Below, one piece after another: positions 6,233-31,421 of a stretch of DNA of 64,000 nt. Origin of the DNA: Terriglobia bacterium (GTDB lineage Bacteria; Acidobacteriota; Terriglobia; JAJPHL01; JAPKYU01); contig CBDBKE010000003.1 in NCBI GenBank assembly GCA_965206645.1, positions 849,690 to 913,689 of the forward strand, written 5' to 3'. A program made the position numbers and the translations under genes. The first letter of the stretch is position 1; the number at the start of each line of letters is the position of its first letter. The notes below the pieces were generated by a model, which searched no databases, was not told the origin of the DNA, and saw only the letters and a program-made list of their open reading frames with translations.

Positions 6233-6287
6233 CCCATTGCCGCCTGACTCCGGATCACCAAACTTTGAAAACTCGAACGAACTGTCG

Positions 6288-6914: not shown

Positions 6915-7040
6915 CAGCGATCCGGCTGATCAAGGACGCGCTTCCGTTTCTCCAGAAGGTCCTCTTTGAGGGCGTTATTAGTAATTCGCCAGCGACAGGC
7001 AAACAGGTCGATTTTTGATGCGCCATGGAAATAGGGTTTG

Positions 7041-7069
7041 TTGAGGATGAAGGAGTTAGGAGTTAGAAT
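7041..7069 (+). promoter_or_regulatory. Sigma70-like promoter for tRNA-Arg
   Basis: TTGAGG-N17-TAGAAT ending 8 nt before the tRNA. Confidence 0.55.
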
Positions 7070-7077
7070 GCACGTAT

Positions 7078-7153
7078 GCGCCCGTAGCTCAGAGGATAGA
7101 GCATCTGCCTTCTAAGCAGAGGGTCGCAGGTTCGAGTCCTGCCGGGCGCGCCA
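7078..7153 (+). tRNA. tRNA-Arg (TCT)
   Basis: Acceptor GCGCCCG/CGGGCGC, anticodon stem TCTGC/GCAGA with loop CTTCTAA, GGTTCGAGTCC, encoded CCA. Confidence 0.97.
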
Positions 7154-7309
7154 TCCTTTTCAACCGGTTAGAGGGGACCAGTTCCCACGGTCTGCCCGCT
7201 TGTCCACACAGATGTCCACACGAGTCCGGTAGATGCGGTGTTTTGTGCCGGTCTCCGATGTTTAGTGGCCGTTCGCAATTGCACACAATCCCCCGGCCGG
7301 CGCGAGATC

Positions 7310-7432
7310 ATGCGACGTTTCGCTGGCATCTACGCGCTCTATCGCCGAAAACGTCTCTACTACATCGGCCTGACTACGAACCTCCTAGGCCGAATCAAAT
7401 GGCATCTCCGAGACCGGCACGCGCGGAAGTGG
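7310..7432 (+). pseudogene. GIY-YIG nuclease fragment
   Basis: GIYALY..LYYIGLTTNLLGRIKWH. Confidence 0.55.
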
Positions 7433-7480
7433 GGTCTGCGCATTGCCGATCAAGCCGATCAAGGACCGCGTGGGACGACG

Positions 7481-7645
7481 ATGGCAAGGTTGAGTATCGC
7501 GATCGCCTCCTTGGTTCTGGCGTCCTCGGCCGCAACCTGGATGGTGACTGAGCCTGACGCAACGGAGATCGTCAGGCTCTCCGACCTAGCCATCCGAGGC
7601 AAAACGCTGCAGGGAAAGTCCTCCATGACGGTTCGTACTCCCGAC
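7481..7645 (+). pseudogene. N-terminal fragment of an outer-membrane lipoprotein-sorting (LolA-like) protein
   Basis: Signal peptide then PDATEIVRLSDLAIRG..SMTVRTPD; runs head-on into the next fragment. Confidence 0.4.
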
Positions 7646-7829
7646 CGTCGGAGCGCACCAGGCAGGGCCCGGAGGACTCGTTGAAGGCGAGGCCAAACTG
7701 CGCGCCCGGCACGGTGGTGATCATCACCTCGTAGAGGTCCCCTACCGTCTTGATAAAGTGGGATTGCCCAATCACCACGTTGGCCCCTTCGGGAATTTCG
7801 ATGCCGACAGCGTGCAGATTTACAGCCAT
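7640..7829 (-). pseudogene. Adenosine-specific kinase family, N-terminal fragment
   Basis: GGAGG RBS; NVVIGQSHFIKTV..FGLAFNESSGPCLVRSDG; truncated. Confidence 0.7.
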
Positions 7830-8052
7830 CCTTTCCTCCAGAAAAACAGCAGCATCGCCAGGTGTCAAGGGCGGAGTAAAACTAGACCACTCCGGCGGAG
7901 AGAAAGTAGACCAGTTCAGGGGTGGTGGAAGCTTTGATTTGAGAGGGAGTTGCGGGGGCGGTTGGAGCGGAGGCCTGCGACGCCCGCAGGGCGGCGCGGT
8001 TAGGCCGGAGTGGAAGCCGCTCTCGCAACTCGTCGCCCAGTATTGGGTGAGA

Positions 8053-8817
8053 TCAGGCGCGAGGCTTTCCGGAACGCCTTCGTTTGCTGTCCTTGAGCCG
8101 GCAACTTTCCCCGTTCATCTCCAGGATGTGGACATGGTGGGTGAGACGATCCAGCAGGGCTCCGGTCAGCCGCTCCGATCCGAAGGCCTCCGTCCATTCG
8201 TTGAACGGCAGGTTGCTGGTCACCACGGTGGCGCTGCGTTCGTAGCGCCGGCTGAAGACCTCAAACAGCAACTCCGCCCCAGTCTTGGATAGCGGCACGA
8301 AACCCAGCTCGTCAATGATCAACAGCTCGAAACTGGAGAGCATCTTCTGGAACCGCATCAGGCGCCGCTCGTCCTTGGCCTCGATCAGCTCATGCGCCAG
8401 GGAGGCCGCCGTAGTGAACCGGACCCGGAACCCTTTCTGACAGGCGGCCAGTCCCAGCGCCAACGCAATGTGGGTTTTTCCCGTGCCCGAGTTCCCTAAA
8501 GCCAGGATGTTCTCCTTGCGTTCGATGAACTCGCCTCGGGCCAGCTCGAGCACCAAGGCCTTATTCAGCGACGGAAGGGCCAGGAAATCGAAACTGTCGA
8601 GGCTCTTCACCACGTCGAACCTGGCTTGGTGAATGCGCCGCTCGGTGGCGCGCCGTTCCCGGTCCAGCAGCTCCAGCTCCGTCAACCGCAGCAGGTAGCG
8701 CGGGAAGTCCACGCCCTCGGCAGCGCACTGCTGCGCCACCTTGTCGTACTCACGCAAAAAGGTGGGTAATTGCAGGGCCTTCAGATGGTGTTCCAGCAAC
8801 ACCTGGGGCGTGTCCAT
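8053..8817 (-). CDS. istB: IS21 helper ATPase IstB
   Basis: GNSGTGKT, LLIIDELG, TSNLPF..W, LDRLTHH. Confidence 0.93.
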   Translation of the reverse strand: MDTPQVLLEHHLKALQLPTFLREYDKVAQQCAAEGVDFPRYLLRLTELELLDRERRATERRIHQARFDVVKSLDSFDFLALPSLNKALVLELARGEFIERKENILALGNSGTGKTHIALALGLAACQKGFRVRFTTAASLAHELIEAKDERRLMRFQKMLSSFELLIIDELGFVPLSKTGAELLFEVFSRRYERSATVVTSNLPFNEWTEAFGSERLTGALLDRLTHHVHILEMNGESCRLKDSKRRRSGKPRA

Positions 8818-9785
8818 CAGCAGACTCCTTCCCGGAGCAGGGTCAGATAGTCGGCGGCGGCTGTGGTGGCCACCTGCGTCGCCGGCAGGTGCGGATAGTG
8901 CTCCAGGTCCAGCCGCGCCGGCCGCTGCTCGATCCGGCCCAGCAGCAGATGCTTGACCGCGTCAGACCAGATCGCCCCCAGCCGCAAGGCGTCCTCGACG
9001 GCCAGCGACACTTCCGTCCAACGGAACGTCTCCAGCCGTCGCAGGACCTGCACATACTCCCGCTTGCCCTTCTTGCCTAACCGCGCCTCCATCAGCCGCC
9101 GCAGTTGCGCGAAGCCTTCCGGCAACTCCCAGCCGGCCAGGGGGGCGGCCTGGTTCAACGCGTTCGGCTTCTGCTCCAGCAGCGCCAGATAGTGCAACGG
9201 ATCGAAGATCATCTCTTCCCGTTCCTAGCTCCGGACATGGCGTGCGATCACTTCGCTCGCTGCACAGATCACCACTTCCTCGACGAATCCCTTCACCAGC
9301 ACCTCCCGGTGCCCCCAAGCCACCGGCACCGAATAGTCGTTGGATCGATACCGCACCAGCGACAGTGACGTCACCCGTGTGGTCCGTTTGTCGCAGGCCT
9401 CATAGGGCGTCGCCGGCAGGGGCAGCAGCCTCTGTTGATCCTTCGCGAACCGCTCGCCGATCGTCTCTTGATGTCCTCGCAGACGCCGCTCTCGCCGCCG
9501 GGTGCACTGTTCCCGCAGCTTCGCGTGCAACTCCTCCCAGCTGGCACACCGCGGCACCGGCACCAGGAAGTTCCGCCGCACGTAACCCACTAGTCCTTCC
9601 ACTTTCCCTTTGTCATTGCCCTTGCCCGGTCGTCCGAACTTCTCCGCAAACAGGTAGTGACTCTGCAGTTCGGAGAACGCCCGCGTCTTGTTCCGTGTTC
9701 CGTCACCCAGGATCTGCCTCACCGCCAGCTTGGTGTTGTCGTACAGGATCGTGCGAGGCACTCCGCCGAAGTAGCCGAACGCCTG
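8817..9785 (-). pseudogene. istA: IS21 transposase IstA, truncated and with an internal TAG near 9226
   Basis: ILYDN, KGKVEGLVGYVRRN, YSVP; two in-frame ORF pieces. Confidence 0.88.
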
Positions 9786-12404
9786 TGACCAGACCGATTT
9801 TTTGTACCAACCGTAGTGAGAGTTTACATCGCAGCCTGGGGCTGTGAAACTGGTTTCAGTGGCAGGGGAGGGCTATAGAGTCTGTGTGAAAACCGCTCTT
9901 GCGAGTCACGTATAATGCGCCTTAAGGGGGCGCGATGAAATTCTTGACCTACAACCCGGAGCAAGCGTATCTGCTACCGCCCAGCGTGCGGGAGGTGCTG
10001 GGAGAAGATCACATCTGTTTTTTTGTGCACCAAGTCGTGGAGCGGCTGGAACTGAGTGCGTTTGAGCAGGGCTACGTGGAAGAAGGCCGCCCGGCCTATC
10101 ATCCGGCGCTGTTGCTGAAGGTGTGGCTGTATGCCTACGCGCTGGGCGTGACCTCGGCCCGCCGTCTGGAACAGCGGGTGCGGGAGGACCTGGCGTTCCG
10201 TTATCTGGCGGCCGGAGCGGGGCCGGACTTTTGGACGCTGAACCAGTTTCGGACGCGGCACGCCCGTGCCCTGAACGATCTGTTCACACAGGTGGTGGAG
10301 TTGGCGCGGTCGCTGGGGATGGGGCGGCTGGGACACGTGGCCATGGACTCGACGCGGGTGGCGGCCAACGCCTCGCAGGACCGGGTGGAGACGGTGGCCA
10401 AGTTGAGGGCAGAGCGAGCCAAAATTCGGCGGCAGATTCGTCGCTTGCAGAAACAATGTGACACGCAGTCCTGCGAGGAAGCGGCTGGCCAGCAACTGAG
10501 CGGCAAGCAGATGGCAGCGCTGGAGAAGCGGCTGGAAGAAATCCCGCGATGCCTGGAGCGGTTGCGCAAAAGCGGGCTGAAGCGGCGTTCGGAAACCGAT
10601 CCCGACAGCCGGTTTTTGCCGACCGCAAGGGATTCACGCTGGGTTACACGGCGGAGGTGGCGGTCAGCGAAGATCATCTGATTGTCGAGCAGCACGTGGG
10701 GCAAAACGCCACCGACAACGCGACGCTGGTCCCTCTGGTGGAGGCGGTCGAGCGGCACTGCCGGGAACGCCCGCGAAGGTCAGCGCCGACAGCGGCTTCT
10801 TTTGTGGAGACCATCGTGGAAGCCCAGCGTGGCCGACGTCTATGTGCCCGACTCGAACTTGGCGCGGGAACTGAACCGAGGCCAACGCGCGCCCGGAGCA
10901 CCTGCTGTACGGCATCCGGAACATCGGCGAATGCGACGCAAGCTGCGCGACCCGGCCGGCCGGGCGGTTTATCAGCGGCGCAAGGCGATCGTGGAACCAG
11001 TGATCGGGGTTTTGAAAGAACAGCGTGGAATGCGGCAGTTCCGGCGGCGGGGCCTGGAGAAGGTCGCGGTGGAGTTCGCGCTGGCCGCAACGGCCTTCAA
11101 CCTCACCCGCCTGTGGCGCAACAAACCGAAGCTAAATCAGGAAGGCTAGTTCAGCAGACTCCCGGACCGGCGACTCGGCGAAGATCGAAACACCAGAATT
11201 CTGGAGCGAATCATGAGATTTCCAGCCAGCTAAACCGAGGGCTATAGGCCCCCGGCGCCGGGGGCCTATAGGCGAGCGCCGAGTGCGGCCGCACCGTGTT
11301 GTATTGCACCCTCCACTGTTCAATCACCACCTGTGCCTCCTTCAACGAGTAGAAGATCTCTCCATTCAGGCATTCGTCCCGCAGCTTCCCATTGAAACTC
11401 TCGCAGTACCCGTTCTCCCAGGGACTGCCCGGTTCGATGTACAGTGTCCCGGTCCCTAGATTTGCCAACCACTGGCGCAGTTGTTTGGCGATGAACTCGG
11501 GACCATTGTCGGATCGAATCTGTTCCGGTATCCCTCGCCACAACATCACGTCCGACAACGCCTCAATGATTTGTTGGCTGCCCATCCTCCGCTCCACCCG
11601 GATCGCCAGGCATTCCCGCGTGTACTCATCCAGCAAGGTCAGCAGCCGCAGCGTTCTCCCCTCGTGCGTTCTGGCACTCATGAAGTCGTAGCTCCACACG
11701 TGGTTCGGTCGCTCCGGCCTCAGTCGTACACAGGAACCGTCGTTCAGCCACAGCCGTCCTCGCGGCCTTTGTTTTTGCGGCACTTTCAGCCCTTCCCGCC
11801 GCCAAATCCGCTGCACCCGGTCCTTGCCCACTTCCCAGCCCGCACTCCGCAGCAACGCTGTGATCCTCCGGTAGCCATATCGCCCGCACTTCGCTCCCAG
11901 GGCAATGATCGCTCGGGTCAGAGCATCCTCGTCCACCCGATGAATCGGCTCGTATCGTTGTGTCCCTCGCCATTGCCCTAGCAGCCGGCAGGCATGCCGT
12001 TCCGACAACCCGTGTTGCTCCCACGCACGCTCCACCGCACAACGCCGCCGCTCAGGGCTCAGAAGTTTCCCTGTGCCACATCCCGCAGCACCTGCTTCTC
12101 CAGAGAAAGCTTCGCTACCAACCGCTTCAGCCGCGTGTTTTCCTTCTCCAACTCCTTTAGCCGTTTTGCCTGCACCACCTTCAGCCCGCCGTATTCCTTC
12201 CGCCACCGGTAGTAGGTTTGGGTGTGGATTCCAGCTTCTTTGCAGGCTTGGGGCGCAGTCTTCCCGTTCCCCATCTGCACTTCTATCTGCCGTAGCACCG
12301 CTACAATCTGCTCCGGCTTGTAACTCCTTGTCGGCATGACCTCACTTCCTCCTCAAGTGGATTCTCTCTCTTTCCACTTGGTACAAAAAGTGCCGGTCAG
12401 GTCA
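9786..12404 (-). mobile_element. IS3-family element copy 2 (inverted relative to copy 1), interrupted near its right end by IS1182
   Basis: Near-identical to 4983-6232; TIRs at 12404 and 9786; orfA 12059-12337; retains YCESF. Confidence 0.95.
9878..11236 (+). mobile_element. IS1182-family element, transposase frameshifted (9935-11149)
   Basis: YHPALLLKVWLYAY, PDFWTL, MDSTRVAANAS, RKAIVEPVIG..FRRRGL; flanked by direct repeat GAGGGCTATAG (9868-9878, 11237-11247); exact ends uncertain. Confidence 0.88.
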
Positions 12405-12821
12405 GCGAAGCCTTTAGTTTCGACGATTAGCGAGCACTTAGAAGTGATCTTGTGGAAGCTCCTTGTGAATCCCGCAATGTCTATTTTGCCTCCAGCAACT
12501 GGAAATTCAACTTTGAGCTTCCGCTCAGCCCATCCCAACGAAAGCAAAAGAGGAAGCACAAGAAACGAGCACGTTTCATGCTCACAGACTTCGGCCCAGT
12601 CACAGTAGTTGTAGTAGTAGTCAGCCAGGAGTCTGATTCGTCGGAACGTATTCGTTAGCTCCTCCGCAGCATCCGGGCGTAGCCCCTCCGCGGCAAAATG
12701 TGGCAGGTGATGCTCATTCTGGTCGGCTTGGTGGCGAGCATCTGCCGGGCCGAATATGTTCCCCTGACTTGGCCAGAACTCGTCCTGGATCTGATCGCCT
12801 TTCACGATCCGACTTTGCATG
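12405..12821 (-). pseudogene. PD-(D/E)XK restriction-endonuclease-like fragment (HsdR N-terminal type), cut by IS3 and IS6
   Basis: EHETCSFLVLPLLLSLGW..VEFPV..KIDIA..LIVETK. Confidence 0.6.
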
Positions 12822-13772
12822 GGCTTTGTCAAGTTAAGGCAGAATCAGGTAGTGGGCTACTTTGAATCCGCAGGAGCTGTCGTAGCGGCGGCCTTTAGGC
12901 CGCCATGGGTCTTGGCAGTCTGAAGCCTGCCGCTACGCCAACAACCCGTGGCAGCCTGAAGCGTCCAAAAGGATCAAAGTAGCCCACTACCCAGAATCAG
13001 GCACAATTGGCGGATGAAATCACAATATCGAGGGCATCGCTTTCCAGCTGAAACTATCAGTCACGCCGTCTGGCTGTACCATCGGTTCACGATGAGCTTT
13101 CGCGACGTCGAAGACCTGCTTGCTGAGCGAGGCAGCATCGTTTCTTACGAGGCAATTCGATATTGGTGTCTGAAGTTCGGGCCGGCCTATGCTCGCAATC
13201 TGCGGAGGAAGCAGGGGCGACTCGGCGACATCTGGCATGTAGATGAGCTCTTCATCAAAATCCGAGGTTAGCACTTCTATCTGTGGCGAGCTGTCGATCA
13301 GGATGGAGACGTAATCGATATTCTGGTTACCAAATGTAGAGATCGTCGAGCCGCTACGCGCTTCTTTCGTAAGATGTTGCAATATCAGAAACGACCACCC
13401 TGGCAACTGATCACCGACAAGCTGCGCAGTTATAGGGCAGCGCATCGAGAGGTCTTTCCTGGCTGTCGTTCATCGCACCGGTCGATACGAGAACAACAGG
13501 GCTGAAGCCTCGCATCAGCCAACGCGTCAGCAAGAACGCCGGATGAGACGGTTCAAATCAATAGAACATACACAACGTTTTCTCTCAGTCCACGGCCCCA
13601 TTCAGAACTTGTTCCGAGTCGGTCGTCATCATCTGAAAGCGCACCATCATCGACTCCTCCGCACCCGGGCTTTTTCCGATTGGAAAGAGATGACGTGCGC
13701 CTGTTGAGTAATTGCAAAACTCCATTCGTTTTCGGGAGAATCTTGCCTCGGCTCCGTTAACTTGACAAAGCC
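12822..13772 (+). mobile_element. IS6-family element copy A, inactive transposase, carries a MITE
   Basis: Perfect 16-bp TIR GGCTTTGTCAAGTTAA; WHVDE motif; TAG at 13269-13271 and a frameshift near 13460. Confidence 0.95.
12848..12991. mobile_element. 144-bp MITE with IS1-like ends
   Basis: 18-bp perfect TIR GGTAGTGGGCTACTTTGA; 8-bp TSD CAGAATCA; absent from IS6 copy B (empty site). Confidence 0.92.
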
Positions 13773-13886
13773 CTCTACGAAGCTCTTGACTTGCCCGGCC
13801 AGCCGCTTCTGCTCCTGTGCGTATTGCCCGGCCGGTTTGCCTAATTCGTCCGTCAATTGCTGCTCTAGCTGGGTCATAGATCTTCT

Positions 13887-18802: not shown

Positions 18803-18805
18803 TCT

Positions 18806-22021: not shown

Positions 22022-22079
22022 GTGCAGCGCCGGTCGAAACCAGCTTATTCATTATAGCCCAATAAGTCCTGCCAACTCA

Positions 22080-22295: not shown

Positions 22296-23073
22296 TGACG
22301 TGACCGGGGTTTTTTGTACCAGGTGAAATGAGAGAGAATTCACCTGAGAAGGAGCCCCGATCCTGTCGACGAAGAGGTATAAGCCGGAGCAGGTTGTAAA
22401 CCTCCTCCGGCAGATCGAAGTGGAGACTGCCAACGGGAAGACCACGCCGCAAGCCTGCCGGGATGCTCAGCTCACGGTGCAGACGTAGTATCGCTGGCGG
22501 AAGGAGTTTGGCGGGCTGAAGCTAGACCAAGCGAAGCGGCTGAAGGAACTCGAGAAAGAGAACTCTCGGCTCAAGCGGTTGGTGGCCGAGCTTTCCCTGG
22601 AGAAGCAGGTTTTGCGGGATGTGGCGCAGGGAAACTTGTAAGCCCTGAGCGGCGGCGTTGTGCGGTAGAGCGTGCGCGGGAGCAACACGGGTTGTCGGAA
22701 CGGCATGGCTGCCGGCTGCTGGGGCAATGGCGAGGGACACAACGATACGAGCCGAATCCTGTGCTGGACGAAGATGGCCTCACCCGAGCGATCGTTGCCC
22801 TGGCGACGCAGTACGGGCGCTACGGCTACCGGAGGATCGCGGCACTGCTGCGGGGTGCAGGCTGGCCAGTGGGCAAGGATCGGGTGCAGCGGATCTGGCG
22901 GCGGGAGGGGCTGAAAGTGCCGCAAAAGCAAAGACCCCGGGGACGATTGTGGCTGAATGAGGGTTCCTGTGTGCGGCTGCGGCCGGAACGGCCGAATCAT
23001 GTTTGAAGCTATGACTTCGTGAGTGCCAGAACGCATGAGGGGAAAACGTTGCGGTTATTGACGCTGATCGATG
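22296..23073 (+). mobile_element. IS3-family pseudo-element related to copies 1 and 2, truncated
   Basis: Left TIR TGACGTGACCGGGGTTTTTTGTACCA; in-frame stops; GGGAAAC site. Confidence 0.88.
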
Positions 23074-23150
23074 TGAGGTGGCCCCGGAAAATCGGACAGA
23101 CGTTTAAGCCGCGTCGTGTTGTGTACCATCGCTTTTCCGACTCGCTCATG
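23074..23150 (-). mobile_element. IS3-type terminus remnant
   Basis: TGAGGTGGCCCCGG, same 14 nt as at 48823. Confidence 0.5.
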
Positions 23151-23254
23151 TGTCATGGCTTCTGAGGTCGAATGCCCCCGCGCGTTCGGCGGGTGGTGGG
23201 ACGGGCGTGTCGTAGGCGACCAACGGACCGTGGCTCACGTCGTGACGATGCGTG

Positions 23255-23456
23255 TTCCGAGCGGACGAATCACCCGCGCGAGGTGGTCGAGGCTGCGCTC
23301 GCGCACGTGGTCAGTGACCAGGCGGAAGCGGCCTACGCGCGGTCGGACCTGTTCGAGCGCCGCCGCCACCTGATGGACGACTGGGCGTCGGCAATCGAGG
23401 CTACACCTCAAACCCGTTCGCTCGATCAGACGCACTACTCGGCCGCTTCTTCGTAG
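23255..23456 (+). pseudogene. Tyrosine integrase (P4-like) C-terminal fragment
   Basis: EVVEAALAHV..AYARSDLFERRRHLMDDWA. Confidence 0.8.
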
Positions 23457-23502
23457 TCATCCAAGACTGTATCTGACAGGTCTGTAAGGTGAGGCTGTTC
23501 TA

Positions 23503-23781
23503 CTAGTTCCTTGACGAGACGACTGGGTTAACACGGAAGCGAATAACAAAGGGGTCATCCTCCGGATAGAAGATCGGCGAACTCTCCTCGTAGGGTCCGT
23601 CCGAAACCTCCAACAGACCAATCTGCCGAGAGAGCTTCGTCAGGTAACAGACGAAAATATCACCTCGTCTAATGCGACTCGCCGCGTGGCGTTGTCTTCT
23701 TCTGAAGCCAGATACGGTTTGTTCCGACTGCTCAAATGCTGCGTAGGTTTCTGGTGAGAACAAGTTCAGGTAGTAAGCCGT
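23503..23781 (-). pseudogene. EVE-domain protein, truncated; start codon reads ACG
   Basis: AYYLNLFSPETY..GDIFVCYLTKLSR.IGLLEV..PFVIRFRV. Confidence 0.7.
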
Positions 23782-23853
23782 CTATTGCTTAGTGCACGAT
23801 TGTCCCGTTTCGTGAGGTGACCCCTAATCGGTAGCTTGCATCTATCGCGGGGC

Positions 23854-23882
23854 GGGTTGATCCCCGCGTGTGCGGGAGAAAC
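23854..23882 (-). repeat. Solitary type I-E-like CRISPR repeat (no array, no cas genes)
   Basis: GTTTCTCCCGCACACGCGGGGATCAACCC, 29 nt with CCCGC/GCGGG stem. Confidence 0.6.
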
Positions 23883-23988
23883 TTGCAATGAAGGGTGCCG
23901 CCCAGATTGCTGCACAAATATCCTTTAAGCTAAAATAGTTGAGCTTGTCTTCAGCATTCAAACTAAGTTTATTGAAGTTGATCCAGCA

Positions 23989-24576
23989 CTAAAGCTCCGC
24001 ACGGGCGATTTGATGAAGTCGGTCGCAATCTGACCAGCCAATAGTGATTGGTCTCTTGGCTATAAATTTCCTTGGCTGGCTAGAATTCACCGGTTCAGGT
24101 GGTGGGTCTTCGAGCGCGTCGAAGGCTTTGTTTTCATTCTTCCATTGTTTGGCAGTAAGTGGTGTACCGTATCTGCCTGACCACATTAGCACTTGCTTAA
24201 CAAGCAGAAGACGATACTTGTCCTCGCGCGGCAATTCGGGAAGCCCGGCATCTGTCCACAGCTTAGGTAGGTCATGCGTTGCTGGAACGCATTCGGTTGC
24301 AGGATTGGCACCCCTCACTTGGAGTTTGCGAGCGATTACGGCCTTTACAACAAGTTCAAGCGCGATGGCGCTCTCTCTCTGAAATGCTTCGCGCAAAGCA
24401 AGACCGGCATCGCCGCCAGTATAGGCGGACTCACGCACCATCTCGCTAAGCCGCGACTCCTCCATCCCGTGCCATAGCACGAAGGCTGCAAAGTGGGCCT
24501 TTTCGGCGCTCGTGCTCCAGTGTCCATATCGCCGCCACTCGATGACGTCTTGCTCGATACTCCACGGCTTTTTCAT
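23989..24576 (-). CDS. Putative HEPN-fold protein
   Basis: AIALELVVKA..THDLPKLW..GRY pattern typical of HEPN helices. Confidence 0.55.
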   Translation of the reverse strand: MKKPWSIEQDVIEWRRYGHWSTSAEKAHFAAFVLWHGMEESRLSEMVRESAYTGGDAGLALREAFQRESAIALELVVKAVIARKLQVRGANPATECVPATHDLPKLWTDAGLPELPREDKYRLLLVKQVLMWSGRYGTPLTAKQWKNENKAFDALEDPPPEPVNSSQPRKFIAKRPITIGWSDCDRLHQIARAEL

Positions 24577-25059
24577 GCGTCTATTTTGCAACAGCGGGTA
24601 GCCCCGGTGCCGCTTTTCCCTGTCGTGGTTTTGTCCATGTAAAGCGTCAAGACGGCGCCCGAATAAAACGTGTGGCATGGAAAATTGTGCGCGGCCTGTA
24701 TTTCTATCACCACGGGGCCATTCTACTGGATTCTTTCTCCGTAGATTGCACCCTCACTGCTAAGGGCCGGCCGCTCCCTGAGCACATTCGGGCGGTGATT
24801 GGCCTTTTGGAGGATGAAGGACATGGCCAGTATCCCGGTTAAGAGGAGTTTCTCGCAAAGGCGCTGACCACAGCCAAGCTCGTTGACAAAAGCCGCCTGT
24901 TCTGTGTGAGGCGCAGGTAGGCTTTGCCAGGCCAGTTCCGAAATGACCCCTCCGGGGTCAGGGTCTATGTCAGGCGTAATTGCTGTCCCATGCGCTGGCG
25001 ATCCACCCGGGTGGGTCGGATGGAGACAATTCTTCTTCTGCTGCCCTGCTGCTACACGT

Positions 25060-25977
25060 CTATTGTGCCACCCTCCGACATACCCCTTGAAAGTAGGTGA
25101 GAAGTGATATCGCCCTGAAACTATTCTGCTCAGTCGCATAACTGACGGATTCACCGTGCAGTACTTGGTGCCGATTGAGTGCGTCGAACAAAACACCTCT
25201 TTCCTTTTCGTTGGCCCATAATGGGTTATTTGTTCTCGGCTCCCTCGGCTCCAGAAGGTTCAACATCGTTGCAACATATTGGAGTTGGGGATCATTCCTG
25301 AAGTCTCGCATCGTAGATGTCAGCTTGTTCTTCTGGAGGACATTCTTACGAAACTGATCCCGCCAAATCCCATCGGCCTGAGAAAGGAATGCTGGAACTG
25401 ACAGTGTATATTGTCCTGCTCTGTGAGCCTCGAATGCATCATGAAGGATTTGACTGCGAAGGGGATATGACTTGGATAGTTCACTCTCTATTGAATCTAT
25501 CCGCATCCTAAAATGAGAACAAATGGCATCTGTTTTCCCACTACTATCATTCGCCCCTAACGAGTCCGTAAAGAGCTGAAGTTGCTCTATAGGTGTGTCC
25601 GGACTCAAGAACCACCCGTGAGTGCTCAGCGTTTCCAAGCACTCCTGTTGTTGTGTACTCAATTGCTCAAGCCGAACTACGATCGACGTGATCTTCTTTT
25701 TGATCTCTGCCGTTGCCTCCCCGATGGTACTTGTCGGGCCTTGCTGAAGCCACAACACAGTCAGCCGCTGAAGATCTTGAGTGTGTCGATTTAAACATTC
25801 GTCATCTTCTTCCGGACTGGGTCCCGACGCATCAATCGTAAGGTCGTGTCGAGCAGATTTCATCTCTTCAATTTCGCACATATCGGAGAAACCGGAAGGC
25901 ACGCCATCTATCCAGGATTTCCTTTTTGGCCATCGCAGCAAGGTTAGGATAGCTGACCCGGAATTGCCATGCAGCAT
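25060..25977 (-). CDS. Hypothetical protein with C-terminal HEPN-like Rx4H motif (start uncertain)
   Basis: LNRHQVLHG; visibly lower GC than host genes. Confidence 0.55.
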   Translation of the reverse strand: MLHGNSGSAILTLLRWPKRKSWIDGVPSGFSDMCEIEEMKSARHDLTIDASGPSPEEDDECLNRHTQDLQRLTVLWLQQGPTSTIGEATAEIKKKITSIVVRLEQLSTQQQECLETLSTHGWFLSPDTPIEQLQLFTDSLGANDSSGKTDAICSHFRMRIDSIESELSKSYPLRSQILHDAFEAHRAGQYTLSVPAFLSQADGIWRDQFRKNVLQKNKLTSTMRDFRNDPQLQYVATMLNLLEPREPRTNNPLWANEKERGVLFDALNRHQVLHGESVSYATEQNSFRAISLLTYFQGVCRRVAQ

Positions 25978-26136
25978 TTTTCTGTGTTCCTGTCGCGTTC
26001 AACCCTCCGTTCAAACCCGCGCGGGGCGTCAAACACGGTGCGAAGGGCGCGTTTAGGCTGACCCGGGGCCATGCGACGACACCTCTCCGACGTGGCCCCT
26101 CAGCAACTCCTCATTCCGGCCGCTTCGCGAGGCGCT

Positions 26137-26400
26137 TTAGCCATACAGGTCGGGTTGCTGAGCAACCAGGGCGACTCCGGGACACAGCCGGCGGGCCTCG
26201 GCAATGGATGTCCCGGTCCGGATGCCGCTGCGCTTGGCGAGCTCGTTGGCCGCGATCACGCAGCTATGGACCGCATCGGCGAAGGGAATCACTCCGATGG
26301 GACGGTCCTGCAAGCGAGGGTCGGCCTGCTCTTCGCAGGCCGCAAAGAAGCCGTCGGAATCGACGTACAGACGCTCCGGCTGGAGAGGTTTTCGCAGGAG
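26137..26400 (-). pseudogene. Y-family DNA polymerase (DinB/UmuC-like) N-terminal fragment
   Basis: Hand translation, not in the ORF track: RLYVDSDGFFAACEE..RPIGVIP..CVIAANELAKRSGIRTG..EARRLCPG..PDLY. Confidence 0.8.
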
Positions 26401-26531
26401 GGTACTGTCAAGTTGAGCAGAATCCGCCCGTTTTGCGGAAGGATTCTGCTGGATCAGAGACTGAGAATCAATGACTTAGCGGTGGCGGCGGGCGGCGAGA
26501 ATGCCGCCAAACTACTTAACTTGACAGTACC
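26401..26531. mobile_element. 131-bp IS6-derived MITE
   Basis: TIR GGTACTGTCAAGTT at both ends, identical to the IS6 at 33175-33978; no TSD seen. Confidence 0.8.
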
Positions 26532-26873
26532 CCCCGGAGTGCCTCCAGATGACACGCCGAAGCTCACCTCCCTCCTGGCACTTTATTGAATCACCGCCCG
26601 GTTCTCGACAGAATAGAATTTGCTCTGCGTGACTGGGCCAAGGTTTCCAGCAACGTGGAGGCGACTTCCCTAGCCCCTCCTACGGCGAAGATGGTGATCT
26701 CCTCCTGCCCGGCTCCTGACCCAGTGGGACAAGTTCGGCCGGCCAGCACCAGCCGCTGGCGATCATCCCGGCCGGCTGGTTGGCCGGCGGGTTAGGTTGT
26801 TAGTTTGGCAAAGCCCAGGTGTGAAACGCTGCTATTATGGCAGCAGATCGCCCTATCGCGCGAATGTAAGAGC

Positions 26874-27194
26874 ATGCCCGATAAGCCCAAATTCGAGGGA
26901 CCCGACCGGCGTCAGCGGTACCGGGTCACCAACGAGGTCAAGATCCTGGTCAAGGCTGGCAAGTTGTTTTCCCAAGTGGGAAGCGTCAAGAACCTCACCC
27001 GCAATGGAATCTTTTTTGAGGCTTTTGGTGATTACCAGCCGGGCATGGGGATGGAAGTCATGTTTCCCTACGACCCATCAAAGCCCTCGATGGAACGGCC
27101 CATGAGTGCCGAAGTCGTGCGGGTCCAAGAAATCGAAGGCTCAATCAAAAAGGGCGTGGCCATCAAGCTGCTTGGCATTTTCCTGAAACCCTAA
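26874..27194 (+). CDS. Stand-alone PilZ domain protein
   Basis: RRQRYR and NLTRNG c-di-GMP-binding-type motifs; EVVRV..GVAIK. Confidence 0.8.
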   Translation: MPDKPKFEGPDRRQRYRVTNEVKILVKAGKLFSQVGSVKNLTRNGIFFEAFGDYQPGMGMEVMFPYDPSKPSMERPMSAEVVRVQEIEGSIKKGVAIKLLGIFLKP

Positions 27195-27352
27195 ACAAAT
27201 TGCAGGAAAAACTGCGCCCCAGCCCCCAAGTGTCTTTTGTTCCCACGCCCCGCGCAGCAGTTGGTGCAATTTATCGAGTCGCCATTGCTCGGGAGCACTC
27301 ACCTCCGCTGATTCAGGTTTTCACTTCCCTCCGCCGCATTGGCGCCCCGCAC

Positions 27353-27736
27353 TCAAGACCATCGCCGCCAGCGACGTTCTGCTTGCCGCACTTGCTGCTC
27401 GTTCAGGCCGAAGTAATGTCCCACCTCGTGCCAAAGCGTCTCCCGGACGATTTGCCGAAGGTGTCTTTCGTTGCGCGCCAGCCGCTCGATCGGTCCCCGA
27501 TAAATGGAGACCTTGTCGGGCAGTACCAAGCCGTAGCCCGTAGTGCGCTGGGTCAGCGGGACCCCGTGGTAGAGCCCGAGCAGTGTGGAGTCGAGTGGGC
27601 AGTCTGCTCGTTCGAGGTCCTCTGCACTCGGTTCTTCCTCGATCGCGATTGCCACGTTGGCGATGCGGCGGCGGAAGTGCGCCGGGATTTGCAGACAAGC
27701 CTCCTCGACTAGGCGGGCAAACTCCTCCCGCTTGAT
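27353..27736 (-). CDS. Minimal zincin-like metallopeptidase (start uncertain; expected start position reads ATC)
   Basis: LLGLYHGVPL..PDKVSIYRGPI..LWHEVGHYFG. Confidence 0.8.
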   Translation of the reverse strand: MKREEFARLVEEACLQIPAHFRRRIANVAIAIEEEPSAEDLERADCPLDSTLLGLYHGVPLTQRTTGYGLVLPDKVSIYRGPIERLARNERHLRQIVRETLWHEVGHYFGLNEQQVRQAERRWRRWS

Positions 27737-27878
27737 GTGACGCGCACGCTTACCGGCCTGTAGCTTGTGGCTCGTGCCGAATAGCTTATCACGCGGGAAA
27801 ATGCACGCTGGAGCAAGCTCCGCACGGCCGGGCGCGCTTGCCGTTGCATTGTGATACACTGCACAAACAGCCGGCCTC

Positions 27879-29987
27879 ATGCTTAGCCTGGTTGTTCCCA
27901 CATACAACGAACGGCACAACCTGCCGACGCTGCTTGAGCGTCTGCAGTCGGCCCTGGCCGACTGCGGCGAGCCGTTTGAGGTGATCGTCGTGGATGACGA
28001 CAGCCCTGACGGTACGGCCGCCGCAGCTCGCTCCCTTCAGCCAAGATTCCCCTGGCTGCGGGTCCGTGCCCGCAAGCACCAGCGCGACCTATCTACGGCG
28101 GTACTGGCCGGCTGGTTTGAAGGACGCGGCGACATTCTGGGCGTGATTGACGGCGACCTGCAGCACCCGCCGGAGTTGCTGCCCACCTTGCTCCGCCGTT
28201 TGAAAGAAACGGGCGCCGACCTGGTGATTGCCAGCCGCCACGTCCGCGGCGGCGGCGTCAGCCGCTGGAGTCCCCTGCGGCGCCTGATCTCCTGGGGTGC
28301 CACCCTGATGGCCGGTTTTATCCTGCCGGGCACGCTCAGCCGCGTGCGCGACCCGATGTCCGGCTACTTCTTGGTGCGCCGCGCCATCATCGAAGGCGCT
28401 CCGCTGCGTCCGGTGGGGTACAAGATCCTGCTGGAAGTGCTGGCTAAGGGCGAATATCAAGAGGTCGAGGAAATCCCCTACATTTTCCAGGAGCGTCTCC
28501 GCGGCGGCAGCAAGCTGAGTGCGCGCCACGGCTGGCAATACCTGCTGCACCTGACCTCGATCGCCCTGGACACCGGCGAGCTGCGCCGCGTGCTTTCCTA
28601 CGGGGCCGTCGGTTTCTCCGGCGCGATCGTAAACCTGGGCGCACTGGCAGCGCTGGTGCGTCTGGTCGGTCTGCCCGCTTCGGTCGCCCTGCCAGGAGCG
28701 ACGGCACTGGCCATCGTGAACAATTTTGCGCTGAACGACCGCTTTAGCTTTCCTGAGGCGCGCCGCAGAAACCCCGGCCCTGCTGCCACATTCACTCGAT
28801 TCCTGCGGTTCCTTTGGATCGTGCTGGCCGGCGTGCTGCTGAATTTCTCTATCGCCATCGCACTGATTCGCTTTGCACAGGTGCCACTGGAGCTGGCCGT
28901 GTTGTGCGGCATCAGCGCCGCGGCTTGCTGGAATTTCCTGCTGAACTCGCGCGTCACTTGGCGGGCCTGGTGGGATCGCAGCGTGCACCTGCGGCGCTGG
29001 CGAAGCGCCGCCGTGCCACCACCCCCGTCCGACCTGGCCTGCAATCTGTGTGGCGGACGGCAATTTGTGGTGCTGTTCCGCGGGCGCGGCTCCAGGCCGG
29101 TCGGACGCCCGGAGCTGTTCTGTTGCACCAGCATGGACCACGGTGACTACACCAACATTCTGCGCTGCGTCTCCTGCTCACTGGTGGTGCTGGCGCCCTC
29201 CGATCCGGTGCCCGAAGTTGAACAGTTCTACCGCGGCGTGGAAGACCCGCTGTACTTGCGCGAGGAGCGGGGGCGTGTGCGCACCTTCGACCGCTTGACG
29301 GACGAGATCGGAGAGCTGCGCAGCGGCGGGCGCCTGCTCGATGTGGGTTGCTATACGGGCGTCTTCCTGGAGCGGGCCCAGCGGCGGGGCTGGGAGGTCA
29401 CCGGCCTGGAACCCAGCCAATGGGCGGCCGGCGTGGCGCGCAGCCGCGGCCTGAACGTCCTCGAAGGATTGCTGGCGGAAAACAACCTGCCGCCGGAAAG
29501 TTTTGACGTCGTCACCGTATGGGATGCCATCGAGCATTTTGGCGACCCGCGCGCCGAGATCGACCGCCTGGCCCATCTGCTAAAACCCGGCGGGCTGCTG
29601 GCTCTCTCCACCATGGACGTGGAAAGCGGGTTTGCCCGCCTGTTGGGACCGCGCTGGCCCTGGTTCATGCGCATGCACCTGTATTACTTTTCTCCGGACA
29701 CGCTGCGCGCCTTGCTGGCGCAGTGCAACCTGGAAGTGGCCAGGGTGCGGCGCCACCGGCGAATCGTCAGTGCACGCTATCTGTTGGAAAAAGCTGCGGC
29801 ACAGTTTCCGTGGGCGAGCGGAGCTCTGGTCCTGCTGGCCCGGTTGCCCTTGCTGGGGCGAGTTCACCTGCCGGTGAACTTCGGTGACATCATCAACGTC
29901 TGCGCGATTAAGACGACGCAGCCTGTCGCTGTCGATGCAACCCCCGCGGCAGAAACGAGAGAAAATCCGACGACCCACAGACGATGA
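27879..29987 (+). CDS. Fusion: GT2 polyprenol-phosphate glycosyltransferase + GtrA-like membrane domain + class I SAM methyltransferase
   Basis: VVPTYNE, VDDDSPDGT, IDGDLQHPP; TM block with NNFALNDRFSF; CxxC..CxxC; LLDVGCYTG, LLKPGG. Confidence 0.88.
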   Translation: MLSLVVPTYNERHNLPTLLERLQSALADCGEPFEVIVVDDDSPDGTAAAARSLQPRFPWLRVRARKHQRDLSTAVLAGWFEGRGDILGVIDGDLQHPPELLPTLLRRLKETGADLVIASRHVRGGGVSRWSPLRRLISWGATLMAGFILPGTLSRVRDPMSGYFLVRRAIIEGAPLRPVGYKILLEVLAKGEYQEVEEIPYIFQERLRGGSKLSARHGWQYLLHLTSIALDTGELRRVLSYGAVGFSGAIVNLGALAALVRLVGLPASVALPGATALAIVNNFALNDRFSFPEARRRNPGPAATFTRFLRFLWIVLAGVLLNFSIAIALIRFAQVPLELAVLCGISAAACWNFLLNSRVTWRAWWDRSVHLRRWRSAAVPPPPSDLACNLCGGRQFVVLFRGRGSRPVGRPELFCCTSMDHGDYTNILRCVSCSLVVLAPSDPVPEVEQFYRGVEDPLYLREERGRVRTFDRLTDEIGELRSGGRLLDVGCYTGVFLERAQRRGWEVTGLEPSQWAAGVARSRGLNVLEGLLAENNLPPESFDVVTVWDAIEHFGDPRAEIDRLAHLLKPGGLLALSTMDVESGFARLLGPRWPWFMRMHLYYFSPDTLRALLAQCNLEVARVRRHRRIVSARYLLEKAAAQFPWASGALVLLARLPLLGRVHLPVNFGDIINVCAIKTTQPVAVDATPAAETRENPTTHRR

Positions 29988-29993
29988 CAGTAG

Positions 29994-31255
29994 TGACCTG
30001 CCCCCCTTCAATCGGTCCAGTTGATAAGTTAGAGGTTAGGGTACGGACTGGACATGGAAGGGGGGAGGAATGCCGAAGAAGCGATATCCAGCCGAACAGA
30101 TCATCCGACATCTACGAGAGGCGGAAGTGGAGCTGGCCAAGGGCCAGACAACGGGAGGGGTCTGTCGGAAGTTGGGAATTACGGAGCAGACCTATTACCG
30201 ATGGCGGAAGGAGTACGGGAGCTTACGAGTGGATCAGGTGAGGCGTCTGAAGGAACTGGAAGGGGAGAATGGCCGACTGAAGAAGTTGGTAGCAGATCAG
30301 GCGTTGGACCTTGCGATTCTGAAGGAGACATCCTCGGGAAACTTCTGAGCCCGCCCCGACGGCGGCAGGCAGTGAAGCATGTCTGCCAAGCCATGGGGGT
30401 GTCGGAGCGGCGGGCGTGTCGGGTGGTAGGACAGAATCGATCCACGCAACGGCATCGAACCTTGGCGCCACAGGATGAACCGAGCCTGGCAACTCGGACG
30501 CTGCAGTTAGCCGGCGAGTACGGCCGTTATGGCTATCGGCGGATCACGGCGCTGTTGCGCCGGGAGGGGTGGCGGGTGAACCACAAGCGGGTAGAGAGAA
30601 TCTGGCGGCAGGAGGGACTGAAAGTGCCGAAGAAACAGCCCCGCAGAGGCCGGCTGTGGTTGAACGATGGGTCGTGCCTTCGGTTAAGACCGTGCTGGCA
30701 GGATCATGTCTGGGCGTACGATTTTGTGGCAGATCGAACCCACGATGGTCGTCCACTGAAGATCTTGACGGTGGTGGATGAATACACGCGAGAGTGTTTG
30801 GCGATCGACGTAGAACGGCGAGCCGATTCGATGAGTGTTTTGGAACGGCTAGCAGCCTTGTTTGTGGAGCGGGGAGTTCCCGATTACCTTCGCTCGGATA
30901 ATGGGTCCGAGTTCACCGCTCGGTTGGTACGGGACTGGCTGGAACGGGTCGGGGTGAAAACCCTGTTCATCGAGCCTGCGAGCCCCTGGGAAAACGGGTA
31001 TGTGGAATCGTTTAACGGGAAGTTTCGAGACGAGCTTCTGAATGGAGAGATCTTTTACACCTTGCGGGAAGCGAAGGTGTTGATTGAGGGATGGCGGCGG
31101 GAGTATAACAGAGTTCGCCCGCACAGCGCGTTGGGCTACCGGCCGCCAGCCCCGGAAGTGATCCTGCCGTTACCGCCGGGTTCCGCTCCGCTCCACCCGG
31201 CTGCAACGGCGTATGGACTACCATGGAAGGTGGACCAATAACCGGGGGCAGGTCA
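29994..31255 (+). mobile_element. IS3-family element, apparently intact (orfA 30070-30348, orfB to 31241)
   Basis: TIR TGACCTGCCCCC at both ends; GGGAAAC site; WAYD, SDNG, YVESF. Confidence 0.93.
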
Positions 31256-31379
31256 AGGCCGAACTGAACGATTTCTGGCACATTTCTAGCACAGTTTGAG
31301 GCGAACAGGTCGATTTTTGATGCGCCATGGAAGTAGGGTTTGTTGAGAATGAAGGAGTTAGGTGTTAGGAGGCACGTAT

Positions 31380-31421
31380 GGGCGGTTAGCTCAGTTGGTC
31401 AGAGCGCCTGCCTTACAAGCA
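31380..31421 (+). pseudogene. tRNA-Val (TAC) 5' half, att-like remnant
   Basis: GGGCGGTTAGCTCAGTTGGTCAGAGCGCCTGCCTTACAAGCA, then non-tRNA sequence; no T-arm or CCA. Confidence 0.85.

What the first reader, a model, noticed from the sequence alone, without database searches (positions are those of the whole stretch)
6997..31421. The same 81-bp promoter module is fused to base +1 of two different tRNA sequences: candidate elements that replace tRNA 5' ends
Seen: 6997-7077 and 31299-31379 align without gaps at 75/81 nt by my count. Both end in GCACGTAT exactly at base -1 of a tRNA: intact tRNA-Arg(TCT) in one case, a tRNA-Val(TAC) 5' half in the other. Before the intact tRNA the module holds TTGAGG-N17-TAGAAT. 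Before the broken tRNA the -10 reads TAGGAG. Established: most tRNA-targeting integrases carry and restore the 3' part of the gene and use the host promoter. Inference: this is the conserved end of an integrative element family that brings its own promoter plus tRNA 5' half (or inserts precisely at the 5' end) and has retargeted between tRNA isotypes. No intact integrase for it is visible in this window.
Basis: partly seen in the sequence, partly recalled or inferred. Interest (0 to 1): 0.8.

Follow-up and report, generated by a model that had tools for sequence, protein, structure and literature searches.

The report
Conjugative element that replaces tRNA 5' halves
The repeated 81-base piece is the tail end of a mobile DNA element from soil Acidobacteria that inserts into the middle of tRNA genes and rebuilds them with its own promoter and front half, a rare but already recorded way for such elements to integrate.

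Summary
6997-7077 and 31299-31379 are 75/81 identical and are the only two copies in the 4.4-Mb genome. Each ends at base -1 of a tRNA: the intact tRNA-Arg(TCT), or a tRNA-Val(TAC) 5' half.

In 4 of 60 other Terriglobia genomes the same sequence abuts a tRNA +1 at all 10 places: Val(TAC), Arg(TCT) or Lys(TTT), intact or as 5' halves. At 9 of those 10 a ~391-aa tyrosine integrase gene lies directly upstream.

In two genomes, direct repeats of tRNA positions 1-39 bound elements of 57 and 51 kb. The 57-kb one carries type IV secretion genes.

The integrase is up to 100% identical across the Val and Arg versions. Only the tRNA 5' cassette differs, and all three tRNAs share one anticodon stem.

In this window both copies are remnants scrambled by insertion sequences. 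The integrase is cut down to 3 codons plus the stop. The genome's only tRNA-Arg(TCT) is a chimera of an element-derived promoter and 5' half with the host 3' half.

The kind is known: Zhao & Williams 2002, and 159 of 3919 Islander islands. New here are an Acidobacteriota family, cassette retargeting, and at least 4-6 switches between the 5' and 3' side within one integrase family.

The parts
6233..6996 (+). Unrelated three-copy repeat with a 225-aa ORF (6237-6914, no Pfam match). Its end truncates the element's right end and creates the apparent left edge of the '81-bp module'.
   Evidence: Copies at C2:815644-816407 (98.8%) and C4:2035836-2035994; what follows differs in all three. No Pfam family.
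6997..7077 (+). Module copy 1: the truncated right (attR-side) end of a B-type integrative element. It holds the promoter-like TTGAGG-N17-TAGAAT at 7041-7069, whose -10 box ends 8 nt before tRNA +1.
7078..7153 (+). tRNA-Arg(TCT), the only one in the genome and a chimera. Positions 1-39 (7078-7116) are element-derived; the rest is host.
   Evidence: Its 5' half is identical to that of G054 and G061 (another family) and differs in the D-loop from the native 5' half found in G000 and its congener G001. Its 3' half equals that of G003 (same genus) and differs by one base from G054 and G061.
29993..31258 (+). IS3-family insertion sequence (transposase 30054-31241) that cuts off the element's integrase gene.
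   Evidence: 7 full-length copies elsewhere; rve/rve_3/HTH_21 domains.
31256..31267 (+). Last three codons (R-P-N) and the TGA stop of the B-type integrase gene. This is all that is left of it in the window.
   Evidence: Alignment with the integrase ends in 10 related loci.
31271..31293 (+). Two tandem 11-nt direct repeats (ATTTCTGGCAC, ATTTCTAGCAC), read as arm-type integrase binding sites of the P arm.
   Evidence: Conserved in the related loci (one repeat is deleted in two G033 copies). The same repeat recurs in the element's left end in G054, G017 and G061. Binding is inferred, not shown.
31299..31379 (+). Module copy 2 (the conserved right end as a whole is 31256-31379). The -10 position reads TAGGAG.
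31380..31421 (+). Displaced tRNA-Val(TAC) 5' half, raw positions 1-42. It was supplied by a B-type element and then cut off by the next integration.
   Evidence: Identical to positions 1-42 of the intact Val(TAC) on C4.
31422..31638 (+). Left end ('A-left') of a second element type. It carries two TTTTGTCACGG repeats at 31524-31545, the same repeat that follows the type-1 integrase gene elsewhere in the genome. Only a stub is left: insertion sequences follow, then core genes (recBCD at 40041-48581, uvrA from 61640).
   Evidence: The same ~220-250 nt follows a Val 5' half at C3:689682 and the native Arg 5' half at C3:286056. Repeat positions; right-end repeats; downstream genes.

Best explanation
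The module is the outermost ~80 nt of the right end of an integrative, probably conjugative, element family of Acidobacteriota (class Terriglobia). This family uses tRNA genes in the reverse of the usual orientation.

The element's attP reads: integrase gene, stop codon, two 11-nt arm-type repeats, ~75 nt holding a sigma-70-like promoter, tRNA positions 1 to 39-42, then the element's left end, which carries the same arm repeats.

Recombination happens in the anticodon stem-loop of the chromosomal tRNA gene. The host promoter and 5' half are pushed to the far (attL) side. At attR the gene is rebuilt from the element's promoter and 5' half joined to the host 3' half.

Val(TAC), Arg(TCT) and Lys(TTT) share the anticodon stem and loop frame CTGCC-TTNNAA-GCAG. 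One integrase can therefore serve all three. Which gene an element enters is set by its 5' cassette, that is by the two anticodon bases in the overlap and by an acceptor/D arm that fits the host 3' half.

Repeated integrations by related element types into the rebuilt gene leave chains of 'promoter + 5' half' fossils.

In this window both copies are such remnants in an IS-scrambled genome. One is a dead Val 5' half. The other has become the fixed promoter and 5' half of the genome's only tRNA-Arg(TCT).

Shown: the anatomy, the linkage to the integrase, the direct repeats, the chimeric tRNA, and the distribution. Inferred: the exact crossover point, binding to the arm repeats, promoter activity, excision, and transfer.
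For: - Position. 12 of 12 occurrences of the 121-nt block, in 5 of 61 genomes, end at -1 of a tRNA: 8 intact genes and 4 5' halves.
- Integrase. An integrase gene lies directly upstream in 9 of 10 occurrences outside this genome: 7 full-length, 2 broken. It matches Pfam PF00589.
- Boundaries, G054. attL is host upstream plus Arg 1-39 joined to the left end. attR is the module plus intact tRNA-Arg, 56.8 kb away. The repeat is 100% identical.
- Boundaries, G017. The same structure, ~51 kb.
- Conjugation genes. The G054 element carries VirB4-like, VirB8, VirB9 (CagX), VirB10 (TrbI), VirB11-like and coupling-protein genes just before the integrase.
- Arm repeats. The left and right ends share the same 11-nt repeats.
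- One integrase, several targets. The integrase is 100% identical between the Val and Arg versions in G003, and 96-98% identical to the Lys version in G033.
- Chimera test. The 5' half tracks the element: window = G054 = G061. The 3' half tracks the host lineage: G000 = G003; G054 = G061.
- Native halves. The native Arg 5' half, with a different promoter, sits next to rnhA at C3:286056 and is joined to an element left end. The same is true in G001.
- Promoter. TTGAGG-17-TAGAAT is the only hit in 6900-7300. A TA[GA]AAT box ends 8 or 17-18 nt before +1 in 18 of 21 intact 5'-side loci of the family, against 7 of 38 native upstreams and 0.2% of random 30-mers. These loci are related, so they are not independent.
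- Independent samples. Contigs from environmental runs bridge integrase end, module and tRNA-Arg.
Against: - No empty site was found, because the same-genus genome G001 is also occupied. The crossover is therefore placed only by the limits of the repeat.
- No circular attP junction and no excision product was seen.
- Among 30 of 41 ORFs of the G054 element scanned, no relaxase family matched. 'Conjugative' is therefore incomplete.
- A full -35/-10 consensus score in the integrase-tRNA spacers is not better than shuffles in most loci.
- Transcription from the module is not shown. The RNA-library data are contigs and may include DNA.
- How an Arg or Lys cassette came to be fused exactly at +1 behind the same module is unexplained.
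- In the window itself the element cannot be delimited. The left and right ends present belong to different element types and lie next to insertion sequences.
Confidence: 0.88

Rival explanations
1. The module is the ordinary, vertically inherited upstream region (promoter) of a few paralogous tRNA genes in this lineage, with no mobile element involved.
For: It contains a plausible promoter and always sits in front of tRNAs.
Against: It was found in only 4 of 60 other genomes, scattered over three families of the class and missing from 2 of 3 same-genus genomes. It is always continuous with an integrase gene end. Native 5' halves of the same tRNAs have unrelated upstream DNA. Direct repeats bound 51-57-kb inserts.
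Confidence: 0.02
2. The module is a small autonomous promoter cassette (MITE-like) that inserts upstream of tRNA genes independently of the integrase.
For: In this window both copies lack an integrase, and one has a sharp left edge at 6997.
Against: The sharp edge is the end of another repeat. The other copy is cut by an IS3 element and still keeps the integrase stop codon and arm repeats. There are no terminal inverted repeats or target duplications. Elsewhere it is never separated from the integrase end, except in one degraded locus (L012).
Confidence: 0.03
3. The element carries a complete tRNA gene as cargo at its end and integrates elsewhere. The 5' halves are decay products of duplicated cargo genes.
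For: Mobile elements often carry tRNA genes. Many tRNA fragments lie in these genomes.
Against: The repeat between the two ends is exactly tRNA positions 1-39 and is followed at attL by the element's left end with matching arm repeats. The 3' half varies with the host lineage, not with the element. The rebuilt gene is the genome's only Arg(TCT).
Confidence: 0.04
4. The duplication is an assembly artefact or a recent segmental duplication inside this genome.
For: The genome is extremely repeat-rich. No listed environmental contig bridges the 6995/6997 junction.
Against: The copies differ at 6 of 81 positions and are joined to different tRNAs. The same arrangement exists in four other genomes and in contigs of independent runs.
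Confidence: 0.01

Closest known systems
[quoted passage not shown]
   Same: The integrase lies on the 5' side. The element restores the 5' part of the tRNA gene and the host 5' fragment is displaced upstream. The Islander paper counts 159 such islands among 3919, and 2083 islands with an anticodon-centred attP (passages read). [quoted passage not shown]
   Different: I could not read the 2002 paper; it is not held. I therefore cannot say whether it described a promoter. Here the elements form a large Acidobacteriota family with a conserved promoter block, one integrase serving three isoacceptors, and frequent switches of side. My searches found no description of this family.
Ordinary tRNA-integrating islands and ICEs with an anticodon-loop attP that restore the 3' half
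   Same: They belong to the same integrase family. 47 of the 80 sampled loci have the usual convergent 3'-side layout. The layout matches: integrase stop, two arm repeats, 60-160 nt, tRNA end. The 3' fragments start at about position 28-36, so both kinds use the anticodon region.
   Different: The half that is carried is the other one, so a promoter must come with it.
SXT/R391 ICEs in the 5' end of prfC, and dusA-specific integrases
   Same: Integration into the 5' end of a gene, with the element supplying a new 5' end. The SXT/prfC case is recalled and was not checked here. For dusA, only the abstract in a search listing was seen (PMC4482086).
   Different: Those targets are protein-coding genes and the integrases are unrelated. 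No comparison was run.

Membership tests
Tyrosine recombinase (phage integrase family) | Pfam PF00589 catalytic domain above the curated cut-off | tested here: met
   G054 module-linked integrase: PF00589, E 4.6e-16, 59.5 bits against a cut-off of 27.1.
Tyrosine recombinase (phage integrase family) | Conserved catalytic Arg...Arg...Tyr residues | tested here: inconclusive
   Alignment A3 of 12 family members has invariant R234, R329 and Y361, among other columns. I did not map them onto a solved structure.
tDNA-integrated genomic island (Islander criteria) | An intact tDNA plus a cognate fragment in the same orientation, an integrase gene between them, and a 5' fragment lying upstream | tested here: met
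   G054: fragment at 1584676-1584714 (+), intact gene at 1641462-1641537 (+), integrase between them. G017: 87266-87302 (-) and 36182-36249 (-).
tDNA-integrated genomic island (Islander criteria) | The same criteria applied to the window itself | tested here: not met
   No integrase remains. The Val 5' half has no intact partner on this contig. The native Arg 5' half lies 570 kb away and is joined to another element type. These are remnants, not an intact island.
Integrative and conjugative element (ICE) | Type IV secretion genes and a coupling protein | tested here: met
   G054 element: TraG P-loop/VirB4-like, CagX (VirB9), TrbI (VirB10), VirB8, TraG-D_C/TrwB coupling protein, and T2SSE (VirB11-like).
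Integrative and conjugative element (ICE) | Relaxase and oriT | tested here: inconclusive
   No relaxase family matched among the 30 of 41 ORFs of at least 150 aa that were scanned. The other 11 were not scanned.
Integrative and conjugative element (ICE) | Excision to a circle, and transfer | not testable with these tools
   Only contigs of public runs were available.
Sigma-70-type promoter | -35 and -10 hexamers with 16-18 nt spacing | tested here: met
   TTGAGG-17-TAGAAT, 9 of 12, at 7041-7069. This is a consensus match only. Activity and start site were not tested, and the consensus used may not fit Acidobacteriota.

The most novel reading that the evidence does not exclude
In this integrase family the side of the tRNA gene that an element replaces may be a freely exchangeable cassette. 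The anticodon loop lies about 34 nt from the 5' end and about 40 nt from the 3' end, and the stem arms are inverted repeats. The spacing from arm sites to core is therefore kept whichever half is carried.

Elements could then flip sides, and hop between isoacceptors, by swapping some 40-120 nt behind an unchanged integrase. 5'-side and 3'-side relatives could together replace both halves of an essential tRNA gene.

Natural pairs of 94%-identical integrases on opposite sides would make it possible to test why 3' ends are normally preferred.
Probability: 0.4. Interest if true: 0.7.

Novelty: new member of a known kind. Interest (0 to 1): 0.5.

Why it matters
The usual explanation for why elements take the 3' end of tRNA genes is that they then need no promoter. 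This family shows the other solution at scale. It has a portable promoter block placed at a fixed distance from +1, reused in front of three different tRNAs, inside an integrase family that also holds ordinary 3'-side members.

The family offers close natural pairs of 5'-side and 3'-side integrases for experiments on att-site evolution and for integrase engineering.

It is also a caution for annotation of Acidobacteriota genomes. The sole tRNA-Arg(UCU) here is part mobile DNA. Dozens of tRNA halves with promoters are integration fossils, not genes. Arrays of such fossils mark serial integrations.

Tried and rejected
- Empty site. I looked for an unoccupied rnhA-tRNA-Arg locus in relatives. The same-genus genome G001 is also interrupted, by a third kind of left end. 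G009 has rnhA and a homologue of window 7654-7769 on one contig but no tRNA-Arg in the parts fetched. Relatives of G054 gave no syntenic empty site either. G062 has an apparently unoccupied tRNA-Arg, but in another context. So no occupied-versus-empty comparison could be made.
- Promoter consensus. Scoring against shuffles in 21 5'-side loci gave a best score of at least 9 of 12 in only 2 of 21, and most were no better than shuffles. I kept only the simpler fixed-position -10 box count.
- First tree. It dropped 13 loci through a faulty filter. Of these, 6 were artefacts of the match start, 6 have real in-frame stops and 1 is truncated. I rebuilt with all 80 loci, stops read as X.
- In-frame stops. 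I considered that they might be programmed. They lie at scattered positions, so I read them as decay.
- RNA evidence. Only Logan contigs were available. They cannot show a start site or prove transcription. No listed contig bridges the 6995/6997 junction.
- Papers. PMC139527 (Zhao & Williams 2002) and PMC100330 (Williams 2002) are not held. Finds in PMC8627217 and PMC8371274 gave nothing. No supplements were consulted; supplements of the Islander and TIGER papers might list these islands.
- No structure prediction, complex prediction or large protein search was run. They would not have changed the reading.


Full report
OBSERVATION

The two stretches 6997-7077 and 31299-31379 align without gaps at 75 of 81 positions. 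In a BLAST of both against the laid 4.41-Mb genome they are each other's only match (92.6%, E 3e-28). ARAGORN finds tRNA-Arg(TCT) at 7078-7153, directly after the first copy. It is the only Arg(TCT) among the genome's 50 tRNA genes. After the second copy, 31380-31421 equals positions 1-42 of the intact tRNA-Val(TAC) on contig C4 and then diverges. TTGAGG-N17-TAGAAT at 7041-7069 is the only promoter-like hit in 6900-7300. The second copy reads TAGGAG and scores no hit.

THE 81-BP LENGTH IS AN ACCIDENT

The window lies in an extremely IS-rich genome.

- Just left of copy 1, 6233-6995 is a three-copy repeat. Its other copies (C2:815644-816407 and C4:2035836-2035994) are followed by unrelated DNA. 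The homology between the two module copies therefore stops at 6997 because something was inserted there.
- Left of copy 2, an IS3-family element (29993-31258; 7 full-length copies elsewhere) ends about 40 nt upstream of the module.
- With those 40 nt included, the 121-nt query (31259-31379) matches over its full length in other genomes.

WHAT FOLLOWS AND PRECEDES THE BLOCK ELSEWHERE

The 121-mer was found in 5 of 61 genomes searched (own genome included), at 12 places. These are one of three same-genus genomes (G003, 3 places), two genomes of another family (G033, 4 places; G017, 2 places), one of a third family (G054, 1 place), and the window's own two.

At all 12 places the block ends at -1 of a tRNA sequence:

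| tRNA | Intact | 5' half only |
|---|---|---|
| Val(TAC) | L002, L004, L012 | the window copy |
| Lys(TTT) | L003 | L011 |
| Arg(TCT) | L005, L007, L008, and the window | L006, L010 |

The three tRNAs share the anticodon stem and loop frame CTGCC-TTNNAA-GCAG.

Upstream, a ~391-aa gene ends (…R-P-N-stop) at the start of the block. tblastn finds it full-length in 7 of the 10 foreign loci, in pieces in 2 (L004, L011) and not at all in 1 (L012). It matches the phage-integrase family PF00589. Between its stop codon and the promoter region lie two tandem 11-nt repeats. In the window only the last three codons and the stop survive (31256-31267), with the two repeats at 31271-31293.

WHOLE ELEMENTS

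G054 is a single-contig genome, named a Terriglobia MAG.

- The intact tRNA-Arg behind the module is at 1641462-1641537.
- A perfect copy of its positions 1-39 lies 56.8 kb upstream in the same orientation.
- There, unrelated host DNA precedes the fragment. It is followed by a left end that holds the same 11-nt repeat as the right end.
- The last third of the interval carries VirB4-like, VirB9 (CagX), VirB10 (TrbI), VirB8, coupling-protein and VirB11-like genes, then the integrase. The rest is cargo and insertion sequences.
- No relaxase family matched among the 30 of 41 ORFs scanned.

G017 has the same structure over about 51 kb.

The layout is therefore: host promoter + tRNA 1-39 | left end … T4SS genes … integrase, repeats, promoter, tRNA 1-39 + host 3' half. 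The identity between the two ends starts at tRNA +1. It stops at raw position 39-42, depending on the element type. That places the exchange in the anticodon stem-loop, the 'anticodon-centred' site class named in the Islander paper. The exact crossover is inferred.

THIS GENOME: CHAINS OF FOSSILS

Three kinds of right end occur here.

- Type 1 integrases (380 aa) are followed by TTTTGTCACGG repeats, a GTGGTTTAGAAT box and a Val(TAC) 5' part. One sits before the intact Val gene on C4. Three more (one truncated) sit before Val 5' parts that are joined to the B-type left end.
- Type 2 integrases (62-67% identical to type 1; TTTTGATAC repeats) sit before the intact tRNA-Val(CAC) and before another Val(TAC) 5' part.
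- The B type is the module, found only in the window and without its integrase.

The ~220-250 nt after the window's Val 5' half ('A-left', carrying two TTTTGTCACGG repeats) recur after a Val 5' half at C3:689682. They recur again after an Arg(TCT) 5' half at C3:286056, which sits behind an rnhA-like gene with its own TTAGAAT box.

I read this as serial integration. Each incoming element cuts off the promoter and 5' half that the previous one had supplied. Insertion sequences later scattered the chain. Val(TAC) has one intact gene and six 5' fragments in this genome. In the window the A-left stub is followed by insertion sequences and then by core genes, recBCD and uvrA.

THE tRNA-Arg IS A CHIMERA

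- Its 5' half is identical to the module-borne Arg 5' half of G054 and G061, which belong to another family. It differs in the D-loop from the native 5' half next to rnhA in G000 and in the same-genus G001.
- Its 3' half is identical to that of G003 (same genus), whose 5' half comes from a different element type. It differs by one base from G054 and G061.

The 5' half follows the element and the 3' half follows the host. Because the integrase and the left end are gone, and the native half lies 570 kb away, this arrangement is now fixed.

RETARGETING

The module-linked integrases are 84-100% identical whatever the tRNA. In G003 the Val version and an Arg version are 100% identical. In G033 the Lys and Arg versions are 98% identical. 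The target changes without any change in the enzyme.

Footprints of such changes exist in the other types. In G061 a type-1 right end keeps a 19-nt vestige of the Val 5' end between its promoter and an Arg 5' half. In G003 a type-2 right end keeps a 21-nt Val vestige directly before the intact tRNA-Arg, joined at a short shared GCGCC. How the B module came to be fused exactly at +1 to three tRNAs is not explained.

THE FAMILY AND ITS TWO ORIENTATIONS

Of these, 460 encode a relative and the best 80 were kept. All but one ('uncultured Gammaproteobacteria') or two (one titled only 'bacterium') of the 80 record titles name Acidobacteriota groups: Terriglobia, Bryobacterales or Acidiferrales.

| Layout, of the 80 loci | Loci |
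|---|---|
| tRNA or 5' half on the integrase strand, 112-162 nt downstream (5' side; Arg-TCT, Val-TAC, Pro-TGG, Arg-CCT) | 22 |
| Usual convergent 3'-side layout | 47 |
| No tRNA match within 420 nt | 11 |

A careful tree was built from 94 rows: the 80 loci plus 14 from this genome and its relatives. Of these, 83 rows are labelled. The orientation label needs 6 changes on the tree (6-7 across bootstrap trees; at least 4 forced by well-supported branches).

The closest pair is L104/L109 (5' side, Pro-TGG) against L106 (3' side, Ala-TGC). Their integrases are 93-94% identical and have the same arm repeats. L106 still shows a decayed copy of the promoter box in its spacer.

In this genome and in G003, single tRNA genes are flanked by a 5'-side and a 3'-side integrase of the family at once.

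PROMOTER

A TA[GA]AAT box ends 8 nt (B type) or 17-18 nt (type 1-like) before +1 in 18 of 21 intact 5'-side loci. The comparison figures are 7 of 38 native tRNA upstreams, 7 of 50 own tRNAs and 0.2% of random 30-mers. These loci are relatives, so this shows conservation and is not an independent test. Full consensus scores do not beat shuffles. For the B module the predicted leader is only 0-3 nt long. That is an inference.

INDEPENDENT SAMPLES

Nine public runs hold at least half of the sampled words of 6700-7700. In the four runs I laid, contigs bridge integrase end, module and tRNA-Arg. Two of these contigs come from RNA libraries, which may hold DNA. Loose ends show the canonical arm repeats before 6997, the B-type left end after position 39 of the tRNA, and the type-1 vestige before +1.

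WHAT IS KNOWN

- The Islander paper counts 159 islands with a 5' tDNA fragment against 3760 with a 3' fragment (Table 1, passage read).
- I could not read the 2002 paper.
- My searches found no description of this Acidobacteriota family, of one integrase serving several isoacceptors through a 5' cassette, or of repeated side-switching.

VERDICT

It is a new family within a known, minority kind of integrative element. In this window it is present only as IS-scrambled remnants, one of which has become part of an essential tRNA gene. I put interest at 0.5. The kind is not new. The family does give an unusually clear natural series for asking how att sites change side and target.

Noticed in passing
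G000:C4:1118263-1118301 (-), outside the window; intact counterpart in L045 (G061:C2:2000824-2000865): Directly after a katG-like gene end and a short promoter-like stretch lies a 5' half of a second kind of tRNA-Arg(TCT), with anticodon stem CGGCC. It is cut after the anticodon stem and followed by GGCTGGCAGTC repeats. In G061 the same katG-tRNA unit is intact with near-identical upstream DNA, although G061 is in another family.
   Followed up: partly
window 7201-7221: Two TGTCCACAC repeats lie ~50-70 nt after the 3' end of tRNA-Arg. That is where 3'-side elements of this integrase family carry their arm repeats. No integrase follows (an IS21 copy starts at 7857). This may be the remnant of a 3'-side element.
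   Followed up: no
G000:C4:2047512-2050066 and G000:C4:498742-501298 (outside the window); L002: tRNA-Val(TAC) and tRNA-Val(CAC) each have an integrase of this family on both sides: one pointing at the 5' end and one at the 3' end. The two at Val(CAC) are 72% identical and share TTTTGATAC repeats. Both halves of these genes may therefore be element-borne.
   Followed up: partly
window 2444-2651 and 26395-26532: Two short repeats, ~208 nt and ~135 nt, each have dozens of copies at 93-99% identity across all four contigs. They look like MITE-type elements.
   Followed up: no
window 4982-6232, 7857-9785, 11211-12206, 22296-23073, 29993-31258, 33175-33978: The IS load is very heavy. An IS3-type element gives well over 100 megablast hits in the genome. 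There are also IS21, IS1595, IS6/IS240-type and further IS3 copies. This explains why element ends are separated from their partners.
   Followed up: partly
L050, L051, L059, L063, L070, L126: 6 of the 80 sampled integrase genes carry an in-frame stop codon, at different positions. I read these as decaying copies.
   Followed up: yes
window 6997-7144, runs X15 and X16: Contigs from metatranscriptome libraries (676 and 653 nt) run from the integrase gene end through the module into tRNA-Arg. If they derive from RNA, the integrase and the tRNA may be co-transcribed. DNA carry-over cannot be excluded.
   Followed up: no
L018 (G001:C10, about 9600) and L010 (G003): A third kind of element left end (…AAGC | G[CT][CT]GTCAC…) follows Arg 5' halves in two same-genus genomes. 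In G001 a serine-recombinase-like ORF start lies just inside it. I did not characterise this element type.
   Followed up: no
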